Shown: positions 4,360-22,944 of the stretch, in pieces
Layout: every line of letters starts with the position of its first letter
Position numbering within the stretch: position 1 is the first letter of the stretch
IMG/VR virus record: IMGVR_UViG_2529292920_000016
Source of the DNA: a virus
Taxonomy: Duplodnaviria; Heunggongvirae; Uroviricota; Caudoviricetes
Reading direction: 5' to 3' (one strand)
Length of the DNA: 32,229 nt
The notes under the pieces: model-generated
What the model was told of the DNA's origin: nothing
The model's database searches: none
The model's input: only the letters and a program-made list of their open reading frames with translations
Program-made: the position numbers and the translations under genes

Positions 4360-4927
4360 TATCGCGTCCTCAACAATGAATTTTGTGATGCAGTGCCTGG
4401 TGCCTCCAGGTGACGTTAACCAGTTAACAATTAACGCCGGATACAGAGAATCCACCCATAACACTGTTTTTGGTTTTAACTGTTCCGCGTGCGCTCAGCC
4501 GCATTCACCACATCACAAAATTCACTTTAAAAAGGGCGGCAGAGCAGTCACGGAGTAAAACTGATACCGCCAAACGTCACCAGAAAATTGATAACAGAGG
4601 GCGTTGCAGCGGGGTTGTCACTTAAGCGTATGGTCAACCTGACAACCCGGTGTCCTCAACGGGGGAAGGAATAACCCCGCCATACTTACCGCCGCGCCAT
4701 TTCGCGGATTGCCACAACCGGAAGCGCACGGTCGACGAAAATTTAACGACAGGCTATCTATGAACCAGCTACCTCGCCGTGCGCTTTCGCGTTATGGTCT
4801 GACTTTTCAGGGACATATCCTTTCAGTAAACTGTCAGTGCCGGATGCTCACCCGTGTCCGGCGCACGCACTCCACCTCATCCGTGGAGAACTCCTTAATT
4901 ACCAACCTTAGCTTCGTTGGTTAGCTA

Positions 4928-19105: not shown

Positions 19106-19181
19106 GGCCCTTTAGCTCAGTGGTGAGAGCGAGCGACTCATAATCGCCAGGTCGCTGGTTCAAATCCAGCAAGGGCCACCA
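19106..19181 (+). tRNA. tRNA-Ile (anticodon CAT; ileX/ileZ-like lysidine tRNA) or tRNA-Met
   Basis: Cloverleaf: acceptor GGCCCTT/AAGGGCC, D arm GCTC...GAGC, anticodon loop CTCATAA, T arm GCTGG-TTCAAAT-CCAGC, 3' CCA encoded. Closely resembles E. coli ileX. Confidence 0.85.
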
Positions 19182-19278
19182 TCACATACCGCCATTAGCT
19201 CATCGGCAGAGAGCGTCAGCTTTCGAAACTGGCTGTGTGGGGCCCGGGTCCCCGATGGCAATCCATTATCTGCATTAT

Positions 19279-19355
19279 GCGTTGTTAGCTCAGCCGGACA
19301 GAGCAATTGCCTTCTAAGCAATCGGTCACTGGTTCGAATCCAGTACAACGCGCCA
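19279..19355 (+). tRNA. tRNA-Arg (anticodon TCT)
   Basis: Acceptor GCGTTGT/ACAACGC, D arm GCTC...GAGC, anticodon stem ATTGC/GCAAT with loop CTTCTAA, T arm CTGG-TTCGAAT-CCAG, 3' CCA encoded. Confidence 0.85.
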
Positions 19356-19540
19356 TATTCATTCTTCCAGATTTCTTCCGGCAGAGCCTTATACTGGAAT
19401 ATACTTGGCTCAGGATATTGTTGAAAATATTATATGTTTGTCAAAAATAAAAGTTCTGTTAAGTATTGATTGAGTGTTTGTTATACGGTCTAATGGTTTT
19501 TTCAGTATTAAATATTTATCATTCATATGGTGTGGGTAGA

Positions 19541-19819
19541 GTGAATATTGATGAGGCGTCGGGGTGTTTCATCCTTAGGCAGCGTATTGATATAGTCAAT
19601 GCAGCACGAGCAAAGGCCTTCAGCCGTTTGACAGTTTTGTTCTGTACTCCTGATCGTCTTTCGGGAAGAGACGTTATTCTTCTGAATAGTGATGCTATAC
19701 AGAGGGTTTGCGATGAGTTCATGGTTGCTAATTCAGAATTATTTGCTCTTGTTCAGGAGTACAACAGAATAGCCAGGACCTGTGGTATGGATGAACTTCG
19801 GATTACTCATCTGGGGTAG
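19541..19819 (+). CDS. Hypothetical protein in the cargo slot downstream of the tRNAs
   Basis: ORF track 19466..19819; the most plausible start is GTG at 19541 after purine-rich GTGGGTAGA. No family recognised; not Shiga-toxin-like. Confidence 0.3.
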   Translation: MNIDEASGCFILRQRIDIVNAARAKAFSRLTVLFCTPDRLSGRDVILLNSDAIQRVCDEFMVANSELFALVQEYNRIARTCGMDELRITHLG

Positions 19820-20196
19820 ATACATATCTGGATTATCACCTGTTACGGTAAAAAGTGATTGCTTACTGTTTTTGTGAATGGCATTGCAGCAGCCGGATAA
19901 TGTCAGTGCTGGCTGACTGTGTACTGGTGGCGGGTGTGGTGGTTGTTGCTTTCCCGTTGCTGAAAAAGAAAACGCCAGACTGTTAGTCGGAGAAATTTTT
20001 AAATACTTCACAATTCAGGCGGTTGACTGTTGTCTGGTTTGCGGGGAGTTTGTTAAAAGAAACTGGCATGGTGAATCCACCTGTGCGGAGGGGCAATCAG
20101 CGAGTAGGTATATGGGATAATCGCGGATTCAGGTGCTGGTACTGAATTCACCGGGAGGCACCCGGCACCATGCAATGGCACATAGCGCCACTCTCC

Positions 20197-20230
20197 AGCC
20201 CCTCTCCGGAGGGGCTGTTTATATTGATTT
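20197..20230 (+). terminator. Rho-independent terminator
   Basis: AGCCCCTC-TCCG-GAGGGGCT hairpin followed by GTTTATATTGATTTT. Confidence 0.5.
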
Positions 20231-20251
20231 TGTCAGATGTGAGTAAACTCC

Positions 20252-20587
20252 TTATGGACTTTGTTGTTTTAGTCCATAAGGACATATTTGCAGAGTGCAA
20301 CGGTTATTAAAGCATTCATTCAATACGTTATCTGTATTTGTAGGGCATTCCTGGCTGTTTTTGATTAAATTCCAGAATGTTTTATTGAATGGTACTACGT
20401 TGTAAATGGTTACAGGTAGCACTTTGTTATTGAGCATGATACCTGTGTGAGTCAGTGTAAATATACTTTCAGGAGGTAAGAAAGCATCCGATTGATACCA
20501 GATTATTAATTTTATTTTACTCCATATGACTGAAAAAGATATTCCGCATGATGGCTGGATAACTGTATCAATCACAATCCACTTCAT
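20252..20587 (-). CDS. Hypothetical AT-rich ORF (111 aa), opposite strand in cargo slot
   Basis: ORF in AT-rich DNA between the terminator and the nanS-p-like gene; Cys-containing C-terminus; could be spurious. Confidence 0.25.
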
Positions 20588-20801
20588 TTAGTTTCCTTGT
20601 TTATGCCTTGCTGGTGATGTTCTGAAAAGTATAAATGATATTTTTGATTGTAAACCATAGAGCAGAATTATTTTTCTGATGTAGTTTATCCATGCATATC
20701 TGCTTGATGATGAGGTTTTTATTTAAGGTATGGTTTTGTGTTTTTTCTGTATTACATGTCAGGTATTTTAAAGAATTATTCTTCAGATGGTGGAAAGAAC
20801 C

Positions 20802-22652
20802 ATGGCATTTAAACACTATGATGTTGTCAGGGCGGCGTCGCCGTCAGATCTTGCGGAAAAGCTGACACATAAACTGAAAGAGGGCTGGCAGCCGTTTGGT
20901 AGTCCGGTGGCCATAACCCCTTATACCCTGATGCAGGCGATTGCAGCAGAAGGTGATATGGTCGTCAGTGGTGCAACTGAGCCAGAGTGGTACTACGTCA
21001 TCGTACTGGCCGGGCAATCCAATGCCATGGCTTACGGTGAAGGGCTTCCGCTTCCGGATTCATACGATGCGCCTCATCCGCGCATTAAGCAACTGGCCCG
21101 TCGTAACACAGTGACTCCCGGTGGTGAAGTATGCGTATTTAACGACATCATTCCTGCTGACCATTGTCTGCATGATGTTCAGGATATGAGTACGATTAAC
21201 CATCCCCGGGCTGACCTGAGCAAAGGGCAGTACGGCTGTGTCGGACAGGGCTTACATATTGCCAAAAAACTGCTTCCGTATATCCCTAATAATGCGGGGA
21301 TCCTGCTGGTACCATGCTGTCGTGGTGGTTCGGCATTCACCCAGGGCACGGAGGGGACATTCAGCGAGTCCACGGGGGCCAGTCAGGATTCGGCTCGCTG
21401 GGGAGTGGGTAAGCCGTTATATCAGGATCTGCTTTTCCGCACGAAGGCAGCATTGCAGAAAAACCCGAAAAACGTTTTGCTGGCGATATGCTGGATGCAG
21501 GGGGAATTCGATATGACGAATGCCAGTTACGCCCAGCAGCCAGCAGCATTTCTTGCAATGGTACAGCAGTTCCGTGCTGACTTTGCCGGGCTGGCGGCGC
21601 AGTGTCACGGTGGAAGTCCGGCATCAGTCCCCTGGATTTGTGGCGACACGACATACGCGTGGAAACAAGAACACGGTACGCAATATGAAGTGGTATATGG
21701 TGCATATAAAGGTAAAGAATCCCAGCAGATTTATTTTGTTCCCTTTATGACCGATGGTAGCGGAGTTAATACACCGACAAACAACCCGTCAGAAGATCCT
21801 GATATTGCCGGGTCTGGTTATTACGGTTCGGCATCCCGAACGAACAAAAACTGGGTATCATCAAATCGCCCGACGCATTTCAGCTCATGGACGCGTCGTG
21901 GCATTATTCCCGATCGTATGGCAACTGCTATTCTGAACGTAGCCGGTCGCACCTTAGCCTTCATTAGTGGTAAGGCACCGGAAATCAAACCCTCGCCCGG
22001 CGGCGACACGCCATCGGGGCCGTCTGAAGATGCATCCGTACGCACAATCTCCCTGTTGCCGACAGCCGGAGATGCTGCTGCGCAGGGCTGGAGCATTAAG
22101 AATGGCGGAATTCAGTTGTCAGATGGTGTATTTAAGATCACCAAGCAGAGCAATAAAACCTGGTCCCTGATGCATCCGGTGGATGACGCAATTACCCTGC
22201 TGACACAGGGCGGCAGACTGACCTGTAAGTTCCGCCTCTCAGGCGCACTGACCAACAATCAGTTCGGGCTGGGGATTTATCTGTATACGGACGCTCCCGT
22301 TCCTGATGATGTGGCGATGACGGGTACTGGTAATCCGTTCCTGATGTCTTACTTCACTCAGACCACTGACGGCAGAGTGAATCTGATGCATCACAGGAAA
22401 GCCGGAAACACGAAGCTGGGGGAGTTCGGCGATTACGGTAACGACTGGCAGACGCTGGAGCTGGTGTTCACCGCCGGCAGTGCCACGGTTACTCCGAAAC
22501 TGAATGGAGTGGCTGGCCCGGCATTCCAGGTTATAAAAGACAGTCTGACACTGGGACTGAATGCGCTGACGCTGACGGATGTTACAAAAAATGCAGCGTA
22601 TGGCGTTGAGATAGAAAGTCTGGTGCTGGAGATAAATGCACCGGCAGCATAA
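20802..22652 (+). CDS. Prophage sialate O-acetylesterase (NanS-p-like): N-terminal DUF1737-like region plus SGNH/SASA esterase domain and C-terminal lectin-like domain
   Basis: ATG 20802 with GGTGGAAAG upstream. SGNH motif VLAGQSNAMAYGEG; size and position (just upstream of the lysis cassette) match the NanS-p gene that follows stx in Stx phages. Confidence 0.75.
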   Translation: MAFKHYDVVRAASPSDLAEKLTHKLKEGWQPFGSPVAITPYTLMQAIAAEGDMVVSGATEPEWYYVIVLAGQSNAMAYGEGLPLPDSYDAPHPRIKQLARRNTVTPGGEVCVFNDIIPADHCLHDVQDMSTINHPRADLSKGQYGCVGQGLHIAKKLLPYIPNNAGILLVPCCRGGSAFTQGTEGTFSESTGASQDSARWGVGKPLYQDLLFRTKAALQKNPKNVLLAICWMQGEFDMTNASYAQQPAAFLAMVQQFRADFAGLAAQCHGGSPASVPWICGDTTYAWKQEHGTQYEVVYGAYKGKESQQIYFVPFMTDGSGVNTPTNNPSEDPDIAGSGYYGSASRTNKNWVSSNRPTHFSSWTRRGIIPDRMATAILNVAGRTLAFISGKAPEIKPSPGGDTPSGPSEDASVRTISLLPTAGDAAAQGWSIKNGGIQLSDGVFKITKQSNKTWSLMHPVDDAITLLTQGGRLTCKFRLSGALTNNQFGLGIYLYTDAPVPDDVAMTGTGNPFLMSYFTQTTDGRVNLMHHRKAGNTKLGEFGDYGNDWQTLELVFTAGSATVTPKLNGVAGPAFQVIKDSLTLGLNALTLTDVTKNAAYGVEIESLVLEINAPAA

Positions 22653-22944
22653 TAAAAAAGCCAGCGCCCACTCTGAAGGACGCTGGCTAAAACGGGTAGA
22701 TGTACTTCACATGATACTTATACTTGGCAGTACATTTTCTGACAGACAGTGACGGATGTTGTCAAGATATTGTGTCATTTATAACCTGAATCAGGGGTTG
22801 GCCGGAATGTTATCTGGCATTTTTAGCAGAGCCTGAATGCCATAATCACGGCTCCCGGCGTTGGCCGTCAGTGGGTGACACTGGCGGCTTTTTTGTTTTT
22901 CTTTACTTTCATTTTCTGTCGGCGGTGACGGAGACATACATCAG

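What the first reader, a model, noticed from the sequence alone, without database searches (positions are those of the whole stretch)
19356..20801. Unknown cargo in the slot between the tRNAs and the nanS-p-like gene, where Stx phages carry stx
Q-like gene, tRNAs, NanS-p esterase and pinholin/SAR-endolysin lysis cassette together resemble the late-region layout of Shiga-toxin phages, but the ~1.45 kb slot here does not contain stxA/stxB-like ORFs. It holds a small plus-strand ORF (19541-19819), a strong intrinsic terminator (20197-20230) and an AT-rich minus-strand ORF (20252-20587), none recognisable. Genes in this slot would be expressed under late (Q-dependent) transcription on induction.
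Basis: partly seen in the sequence, partly recalled or inferred. Interest (0 to 1): 0.6.

Follow-up and report, generated by a model that had tools for sequence, protein, structure and literature searches.

The report
Known moron slot: IraL, STnc100, two small genes
The stretch where related phages carry Shiga toxin is not unknown cargo: it holds the already characterised RpoS-stabilising anti-adaptor IraL, a member of a known prophage small-RNA family (STnc100), a DUF3927 mini-protein and one conserved 92-residue protein of unknown function, and the same block occurs in about a fifth of complete E. coli genomes.

Summary
It follows the same methylase–ileZ–argO module that precedes stx2e in phage phiP27. 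"None recognisable" does not hold.

- **Minus-strand ORF 20252-20587:** 111/111 identical to the CFT073 potB-prophage protein, published as IraL, an RssB anti-adaptor with its own promoter.
- **Terminator 20196-20217:** the 3' end of an STnc100-family sRNA (Rfam 123.6 bits, threshold 47). This family sits directly after stxB in Stx1 and Stx2 phages.
- **19855-19986:** a DUF3927 small protein.
- **ORF 19541-19819:** a real gene (dN/dS 0.26 against a 68%-identical homologue; phrog_2873). It has no known function and is predicted to form a helical hairpin.

Stx2a and Stx2c phages carry stx2AB – STnc100 – iraM-like (minus strand) – nanS-p, collinear with window 20008-20830. Only 19356 to about 20005 (ORF92 plus DUF3927) therefore takes the place of stx.

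The slot is 98-99.7% identical to CFT073 and E2348/69 prophages and is ≥80% covered in 863 of 5426 complete genomes. The finding is ordinary and largely already described. The residual interest is the uncharacterised ORF92.

The parts
19106..19355 (+). tRNA cluster that marks the left edge of the cargo site: ileZ-type tRNA (CAT) 19106-19181, a degenerate middle tRNA 19189-19262, and argO-type tRNA-Arg(TCT) 19279-19355
   Evidence: ARAGORN. Rfam tRNA scores of 72.5 and 70.1 bits, and 22.2 bits (below threshold) for the middle copy. The same module precedes stx2e in phiP27.
19356..19540 (+). AT-rich leader (32-37% G+C) where homology to stx phages ends. It holds promoter-like hexamers, but no more than chance predicts.
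   Evidence: Alignment with phiP27 and phi296, composition profile, and promoter scan giving 8 sites against 8.7 expected.
19541..19819 (+). ORF92: a conserved 92-aa protein of unknown function with a GTG start (phrog_2873; RefSeq WP_001017789.1 where it is called). Predicted fold is helix, short beta-hairpin, helix.
   Evidence: Against the L005 homologue: 68% nucleotide identity, no indels, dN/dS 0.26, and differences by codon position of 23/22/44. PHROG score 194 bits. PGAP calls exactly this ORF in NZ_CP148423.1. AF2 pLDDT 88. No significant fold match.
19855..19986 (+). DUF3927 small protein, 43 aa from GTG 19855 (PGAP sometimes calls the 28-aa form from ATG 19900). It has a Cys-rich N-terminus followed by one hydrophobic helix.
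   Evidence: Pfam PF13064 at 90.2 bits against a cutoff of 25. phrog_1470 'TciB-like', E 6e-12. Annotated in CFT073 and E2348/69.
20037..20226 (+). STnc100-family sRNA gene. The likely mature RNA runs from about 20066 to about 20226.
   Evidence: Rfam RF02076 at 123.6 bits against a threshold of 47, covering model positions 1-206 of 206. Terminator scan. Fold. Conserved helices with compensatory changes across six copies. The same element lies 78 nt after stx1B and directly after stx2B in Stx phages.
20252..20587 (-). iraL: RssB anti-adaptor of the IraM/IraL/RssC family, 111 aa
   Evidence: NCBIfam NF007393 at 162 bits against a cutoff of 121. 111/111 identical to the CFT073 potB-prophage protein WP_000871291.1. 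62% identical to K-12 IraM. Matches the IraM chain of PDB 8TWD, E 9e-32.
20588..20801 (-). iraL promoter and leader, shared intergenic region with nanS-p. My reading places -10 TATACT at 20633-20628, -35 TTTACA at 20654-20649, and the TSS at about 20620. A 46-bp deletion relative to CFT073 and E2348/69 lies at 20680/20681.
   Evidence: Sequence. Construct boundaries of -100 to +33 in PMC4045071. Alignments.

Best explanation
The interval is a composite accessory-gene ('moron') slot of a lambdoid prophage late region, made of two parts. The left part, 19356 to about 20005, sits exactly where related phages carry stxAB. It holds two small plus-strand genes: a conserved 92-aa helical-hairpin protein of unknown function (ORF92) and a DUF3927 mini membrane protein. 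The right part, about 20008-20801, is a module shared with Stx2a and Stx2c phages. It holds an STnc100-family small RNA, whose strong hairpin and T-tract form its 3' end, and iraL on the opposite strand. [quoted passage not shown] Inferred: in the lysogen the sRNA is made from its own promoter and stops at its terminator. After induction, Q-modified RNA polymerase from pR' must read through ORF92, DUF3927 and the sRNA terminator to reach nanS-p and the lysis genes. That would transcribe the plus-strand cargo late and run antisense across iraL. My best guess for ORF92 and DUF3927 is that they are late-operon passengers acting by protein binding and membrane insertion respectively. This is a guess, not a result.
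For: Identity of the parts. The locus is 99.7% identical to E2348/69 PP5 and about 98% identical to the CFT073 potB prophage, where iraL was characterised (PMC4045071). ORF92 is coding: dN/dS 0.26, no indels at 68% identity, third-position excess. Homologues at 31-39% identity lie in the same place downstream of Q and a tRNA in other phages. STnc100 is constant in this slot: after stx1B, after stx2B, directly after the tRNAs in phi296, and after ORF92 in L005 and L006. Collinearity with Stx2a phage Stx2_EH2201 runs from just after stx2B to nanS-p at about 82%. Published data: STnc100 copies are transcribed in EDL933, and one copy (STnc100_4) was confirmed by Northern blot (PMC5331693). The Hfq-binding sRNA EcOnc27 overlaps the STnc100 copy after stx2B (PMC12711010). 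PasD, an Hfq-dependent EPEC sRNA, is structurally related (bioRxiv 10.64898/2026.05.13.724894).
Against: No expression data exist for this particular copy. The window's STnc100 scores lower than the Stx-phage copies (123.6 against 150-177 bits). It has one broken pair in its first hairpin, and only three T residues directly follow its terminator stem. iraL carries a 46-bp deletion from about -61 upstream of the promoter, of unknown effect. In EPEC RNA-seq the identical iraL gene is weakly expressed (BaseMean about 12). Neither the sRNA promoter nor pR' was mapped here, and the promoter scan is no better than chance. ORF92 has no informative sequence or fold relative.
Confidence: 0.85

Rival explanations
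1. The slot carries a new toxin or effector that functionally replaces Shiga toxin and is released on prophage induction. This is the reading the finding hints at.
For: ORF92 and DUF3927 occupy exactly the stx position. They are co-oriented with the late operon, and ORF92 has no known function.
Against: There is no match to toxin, RIP or defence families. ORF92 is a 92-aa predicted helical hairpin, and I saw no N-terminal hydrophobic signal-like segment in its sequence. The unit is >=80% covered in 1183 of 5426 complete E. coli genomes, including isolates from chicken, pig and environmental sources, which is not a pathotype-restricted pattern. Only 21 relatives exist among 1.8 billion representative proteins, and all those whose context was examined lie in phage late regions.
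Confidence: 0.05
2. The left part (ORF92/DUF3927) is decaying non-functional filler, and ORF92 is a chance reading frame. This would explain why annotation pipelines usually skip it.
For: PGAP leaves ORF92 unannotated in E2348/69, CFT073 and most other genomes. Its start codon is GTG with a weak Shine-Dalgarno sequence. The DUF3927 frame appears disrupted in the divergent locus L005.
Against: ORF92 gives dN/dS 0.26 with a twofold third-position excess and no indels over 279 nt at 68% identity. The other two frames carry 4-11 stops. Length is conserved at 91-95 aa in relatives down to 31% identity. The AF2 model is confident (pLDDT 88). PGAP does call the same 279-nt CDS in NZ_CP148423.1.
Confidence: 0.07
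3. The STnc100 element is chiefly a conserved boundary rather than a trans-acting regulator. It would end moron or stx transcripts in the lysogen and provide homology for recombination that swaps cargo on either side.
For: It is the one constant element between variable cargos: stx1, stx2, nothing, or an AraC-type gene plus ORF92. Homology between the window and phage mEp460_ev081 breaks inside it, at about 20174. Blocks such as ACCGGGAGGCACCCGGCACCATGC are nearly invariant, with single substitutions in two of the seven copies aligned.
Against: Helices show compensatory changes, which indicates selection on RNA structure. Related RNAs bind Hfq and have many RIL-seq partners (PMC8550237, PMC12711010). 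The two roles are not exclusive.
Confidence: 0.3

Closest known systems
iraL locus of the potB prophage of uropathogenic E. coli CFT073 (Hryckowian et al. 2014, PMC4045071)
   Same: Same order: tRNAs, ORF92, DUF3927, STnc100, iraL on the minus strand, then nanS-type gene. About 98% nucleotide identity, and the IraL protein is 111/111 identical.
   Different: CFT073 has three intact tRNAs, a truncated esterase gene, and 46 bp more upstream of iraL. The window has a degenerate middle tRNA and a full-length esterase.
Prophage PP5 of EPEC E2348/69 (NC_011601 1287488-1288979)
   Same: 99.7% identical over the whole slot, with the same flanking methylase, tRNAs and esterase, and PasC after the esterase.
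   Different: E2348/69 has the 46 bp that the window lacks, and IS elements inserted after the esterase.
Late region of Stx2a phage Stx2_EH2201 and of Stx2c phages (for example phage 2851)
   Same: Q, HTH gene, methylase, tRNAs, cargo, STnc100, IraM-family gene on the opposite strand, nanS-p, then lysis genes. Collinear with window 20008-20830 at about 82%.
   Different: The cargo is stx2AB instead of ORF92 plus DUF3927. The anti-adaptor is a different lineage: 73.6% identical to IraL and 65% to K-12 IraM.
STnc100 / EcOnc27 / PasD prophage sRNAs (Rfam RF02076; Tree et al. 2014 as cited in PMC12711010; Pearl Mizrahi et al. 2021; Zhu et al. 2026 preprint)
   Same: Full-length match to the covariance model, with the same position between cargo and the sialate esterase gene and a terminator stem-loop at the 3' end.
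   Different: It is not PasD1 or PasD2, because the PasD probe sequence is absent. This copy has not been studied, and the seed regions of family members differ according to the preprint.
IraM of E. coli K-12 (next to prophage e14; PDB 8TWD)
   Same: Homologous over the full length, 62% identical, and an RssB anti-adaptor.
   Different: [quoted passage not shown] IraL also has four extra C-terminal residues.

Membership tests
IraM/IraL/RssC anti-adaptor family | Sequence match to the family model above the curated cutoff | tested here: met
   NCBIfam NF007393 at 162 bits against a cutoff of 121, covering residues 1-110.
IraM/IraL/RssC anti-adaptor family | Identity with an experimentally characterised member (IraL of CFT073, in the potB island) | tested here: met
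   111/111 identical to the only IraM-family gene in the CFT073 potB prophage. The paper places iraL on the potB island.
IraM/IraL/RssC anti-adaptor family | Binds RssB and stabilises sigma-S against ClpXP | not testable with these tools
   Shown for the identical protein in PMC4045071. Not tested for this locus, which has an altered upstream region.
STnc100 sRNA (Rfam RF02076) | Covariance-model score at or above the gathering threshold over the full model | tested here: met
   123.6 bits against 47, model positions 1-206 of 206, E 1e-27.
STnc100 sRNA (Rfam RF02076) | Conserved secondary structure with a 3' intrinsic terminator | tested here: met
   Terminator of 9 pairs. Of 37 consensus pairs, 7 show compensatory changes across six copies, and one pair is broken in the window's first hairpin.
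STnc100 sRNA (Rfam RF02076) | Expressed as a discrete small RNA that binds Hfq | not testable with these tools
   Only literature on homologues is available.
PasD1/PasD2 sRNAs of EPEC | Near-identical sequence, including the region targeted by the published Northern probe | tested here: not met
   Probe CATGCGCAGCCAGAACTCACAAGG is absent even with 3 mismatches allowed.
DUF3927 (Pfam PF13064) | Match above the gathering score | tested here: met
   90.2 bits against 25, covering residues 2-43.
Shiga toxin operon (StxA RIP domain, StxB pentamer subunit) | ORFs matching the RIP and Shiga-like toxin beta families | tested here: not met
   No Pfam or NCBIfam match of that kind for any ORF scanned in 19356-20801.
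phrog_2873 (phage protein family of unknown function) | Full-length profile match | tested here: met
   194 bits, with ORF92 residues 1-92 matching profile positions 17-108 of 108.
Known anti-phage defence systems (PADLOC) | Match to any defence-protein model | tested here: not met
   No hit for ORF92 or IraL, and only a chance-level hit (E 0.025) for DUF3927.

The most novel reading that the evidence does not exclude
ORF92, alone or together with the adjacent DUF3927 mini membrane protein, is a functional late-expressed accessory module that lambdoid phages carry at the exact site used for stx. It would have a host-directed or lysis-related role not yet described, for example binding a host regulator or modulating the envelope at the time of lysis. 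ORF92 is under purifying selection and recurs downstream of Q and tRNA genes in divergent phages, yet it is skipped by annotation in most genomes and has no informative relative.
Probability: 0.2. Interest if true: 0.45.

Novelty: already known. Interest (0 to 1): 0.2.

Why it matters
The result mainly corrects the record. The stx-equivalent slot of this stx-negative prophage is a common, nearly invariant block whose best-known gene, iraL, was characterised from this very locus in CFT073. The comparison adds three small points. First, the slot has two cargo bays separated by the STnc100 sRNA, and only the left bay is exchanged for stx. Second, an IraM-family anti-adaptor also travels with stx2 in Stx2a and Stx2c phages, so RpoS stabilisation and toxin carriage can be linked on one phage. 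Third, a conserved 92-aa gene present in about 22% of complete E. coli genomes is usually left unannotated.

Tried and rejected
- **Family scans of ORF92.** Pfam, NCBIfam and PADLOC gave nothing. PHROGs gave only a family of unknown function.
- **Profile search for ORF92 relatives.** A search of 1.8 billion representative proteins returned 21 relatives, none informative.
- **Structure of ORF92.** The AF2 model was compared by Foldseek against the PDB and BFVD. Only generic antiparallel helical hairpins matched, with E >= 0.15 (prefoldin beta, efflux-adaptor hairpins), so I do not take these as homology.
- **PasD identity.** I asked whether the sRNA is PasD1 or PasD2. It is not, because the probe is absent.
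- **RIL-seq evidence for the PP5 STnc100 copy.** The EPEC supplements as stored (some files were cut when stored) held no entry for it. They held only an iraL mRNA–Spot 42 chimera.
- **The 46-bp deletion.** I looked for it in other genomes and found none among the best hits. The ranking does not allow a strict count.
- **Promoter scan.** It was no better than chance, so it gives no evidence for slot-internal promoters.
- **PhoP box.** The 46 bp missing from the window contain a half-matching motif, TGTTTA-N5-TATTTA, by eye. I did not pursue it, and the IraL paper reports regulation different from that of iraM.

Full report
**1. Observation**

The window is a lambdoid prophage. An integrase lies at 1-1119 on the minus strand. 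The late region runs on the plus strand in this order:
- a Q21-type antiterminator at 16794-17294 (Pfam DUF1133, 298 bits);
- a small HTH gene and an N6/N4 DNA methylase;
- tRNA(CAT) at 19106-19181 and tRNA-Arg(TCT) at 19279-19355;
- the interval in question;
- a SASA/DUF1737 sialate esterase (nanS-p type) ending at 22652;
- a P21-type holin, a phage lysozyme and Rz.

The ORF 19541-19819 exists. A hairpin of 9 pairs (7 G-C) lies at 20196-20217, followed by TTTATATT. The minus-strand ORF 20252-20587 exists and sits in DNA of 30-37% G+C. No ORF scanned in the interval matches a Shiga-toxin family.

**2. The site is the stx site**

The HTH-methylase module is 91-95% identical to that of phage phiP27 and of several Stx2a and Stx2d phages. 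In phiP27 the same ileZ and argO tRNAs, at the same spacing, are followed after 91 nt by stx2eA. A three-way alignment of the window, phiP27 and the stx-less phage phi296 loses homology 10-15 nt after argO.

**3. What the interval contains**

*(a) iraL.* The minus-strand ORF scores 162 bits on NCBIfam NF007393, "anti-adapter protein IraM" (cutoff 121). It is 62% identical to K-12 IraM and matches the IraM chain of PDB 8TWD. The prophage next to potC/potD in CFT073 has the same slot at about 98% identity, and its IraM-family protein (WP_000871291.1) is 111/111 identical to the window's. Hryckowian et al. (PMC4045071) made the following findings:
- they named the CFT073 gene on the potB island iraL;
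- they mapped its transcription start;
- they showed that it raises sigma-S level and stability in log phase;

*(b) The STnc100 sRNA.* The terminator is the 3' end of an Rfam STnc100 match at 20037-20226 (123.6 bits against a threshold of 47, full model). Six copies from different phages share a long-range closing stem, an internal hairpin with compensatory changes, and an invariant terminator. In the window one pair of the first hairpin is broken. Conservation begins at GCATGGTGAATCC. It is preceded by conserved TTGTCTGG and TGTTAAAA motifs, which I read as a -35 and an extended -10 that would place the start near 20066. This is inference.

*(c) DUF3927.* The ORF 19855-19986 is a DUF3927 protein (90 bits). 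PHROGs labels the family "TciB-like", a name I treat as unverified.

*(d) ORF92 (19541-19819).* It has no Pfam or NCBIfam family but matches phrog_2873, a family of unknown function. It is a real gene, on four lines of evidence:
- A homologue at 68% nucleotide identity (locus L005) has the same GTG start and length with no indels. dN/dS is 0.26 and differences by codon position are 23/22/44. The other two frames are full of stops.
- Relatives down to 31% identity keep a length of 91-95 aa.
- In the two divergent loci examined, the gene again lies downstream of a Q gene in a phage late region. One lies after a tRNA; the other lies after a methylase and an AraC-type regulator.
- PGAP calls exactly this CDS in one genome (WP_001017789.1), but not in E2348/69, CFT073 or most others.

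AF2 predicts a confident fold of helix, short beta-hairpin, helix (pLDDT 88). Foldseek finds only generic helical hairpins.

**4. Which part replaces stx**

STnc100 is a fixture of this region:
- it lies 78 nt after stx1B in an Stx1 phage;
- it lies directly after the tRNAs in phi296;
- it lies after ORF92 in L005 and L006;
- it lies between stx2B and an iraM-like gene in Stx2a phage Stx2_EH2201.

A tblastn search with IraL finds a 73.6%-identical paralogue in 41 phage records, mostly Stx2c and Stx2a phages. The window from about 20008 to the start of nanS-p aligns collinearly, at about 82%, with the EH2201 sequence that follows stx2B. The block STnc100 – anti-adaptor (minus strand) – nanS-p is therefore common backbone. 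Only 19356 to about 20005, which holds ORF92 and DUF3927, stands in for stxAB.

**5. Distribution**

The whole interval is 99.7% identical to prophage PP5 of E2348/69, apart from a 46-bp deletion. It is at least 80% covered in 863 of 5426 complete E. coli genomes. The ORF92-DUF3927 unit is covered at that level in 1183 genomes.

**6. How it most likely works**

Shown elsewhere for identical or homologous parts:
- IraL sequesters RssB and stabilises RpoS (PMC4045071).
- STnc100 copies are transcribed in EDL933, and one copy was confirmed by Northern blot (PMC5331693).
- The Hfq-binding sRNA EcOnc27 overlaps the copy after stx2B. Its overexpression was reported to raise fimZ and espA transcripts (PMC12711010).
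- The structurally related PasD sRNAs are abundant Hfq-dependent RNAs with many partners in EPEC (PMC8550237 and the 2026 preprint).

Inferred from lambdoid biology: Q-modified polymerase starting downstream of Q has to cross the slot, sRNA terminator included, to reach nanS-p and the lysis genes. ORF92, DUF3927 and the sRNA sequence would then be transcribed late, while iraL would be met head-on.

The iraL core promoter appears intact. I place -10 TATACT at 20633-20628 and the TSS at about 20620, deduced from the paper's "-100 to +33" construct. The window lacks 46 bp from about -61 upstream, and the effect is unknown.

**7. Verdict**

The positional analogy to stx is correct, and the "unknown cargo" reading is not. 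Three of the four elements belong to named families, and one of them was characterised experimentally at this locus in another strain. What remains open is the function of ORF92, a narrowly distributed and often unannotated late-region gene. I score interest at 0.2 and rate the finding as already known.

Noticed in passing
window 22654-22731 (minus strand): A PasC-type prophage sRNA lies immediately after the esterase stop. The published PasC Northern probe matches 22681-22705 exactly, and a minus-strand terminator (stem 22688-22659 plus a T-run) fits its 3' end. PasC has no Rfam family.
   Followed up: partly
window 19189-19262: The middle tRNA of the ileZ-argN-argO trio is degenerate here. 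It scores 22.2 bits in Rfam, below threshold, and ARAGORN does not call it. It is intact in CFT073 and phi296.
   Followed up: partly
window 20680/20681: A 46-bp deletion relative to CFT073, E2348/69 and all best-matching genomes lies between imperfect direct repeats TGTtGTTTAT and TGTaGTTTAT. It removes roughly -61 to -106 of the iraL upstream region. The lost segment contains a TGTTTA-N5-TATTTA motif.
   Followed up: partly
L012 4501-4824 (Stx2a phage Stx2_EH2201); also Stx2c phages such as 2851: Stx2a and Stx2c phages carry a third IraM/IraL lineage, 73.6% identical to IraL and 65% to K-12 IraM. It lies between the post-stx2B sRNA and nanS-p and is often unannotated in the phage records. 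This links an RpoS-stabiliser homologue physically to stx2.
   Followed up: partly
window 17513-17536: A hairpin ACCCGC-TTTAT-GCGGGT followed by seven T lies about 220 nt after the Q stop codon. It is a candidate tR' ending a short pR' transcript. Weak sub-threshold Rfam matches (isrK, AgrB) end here.
   Followed up: no
window about 20174; L003 (phage mEp460_ev081): Homology between the window and mEp460_ev081 stops inside the STnc100 gene. The mEp460 copy lacks the terminator, which suggests a recombination breakpoint within the conserved sRNA.
   Followed up: no
L005 3186-3911 and L006 164-889: In other E. coli prophages a divergent ORF92 (62% identical) follows a 241-aa AraC-type (HTH_18) regulator placed directly after the methylase, with no tRNAs shown in between. 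It may correspond to the prophage Psr/PatE regulators of EHEC. That link is recalled from memory and was not tested.
   Followed up: no
window 20250-20281: An 11-bp inverted repeat (CCTTATGGACT / AGTCCATAAGG) spans the 3' end of iraL. Its second arm encodes the last two residues and the stop codon of the four-residue QQSP extension that IraL has relative to IraM, and it could form a 3' hairpin on the iraL mRNA.
   Followed up: no
window 13133-13299 and 4534-4585: Rfam finds a sok antitoxin RNA (112 bits) and a DicF RNA (76.7 bits, minus strand) elsewhere in the prophage.
   Followed up: no
E2348/69 NC_011601 1288353-1288689 (equivalent to window iraL): The EPEC RIL-seq tables list 11 Hfq-bound chimeras between the iraL mRNA (E2348C_1245) and Spot 42. 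This hints at sRNA control of iraL.
   Followed up: no
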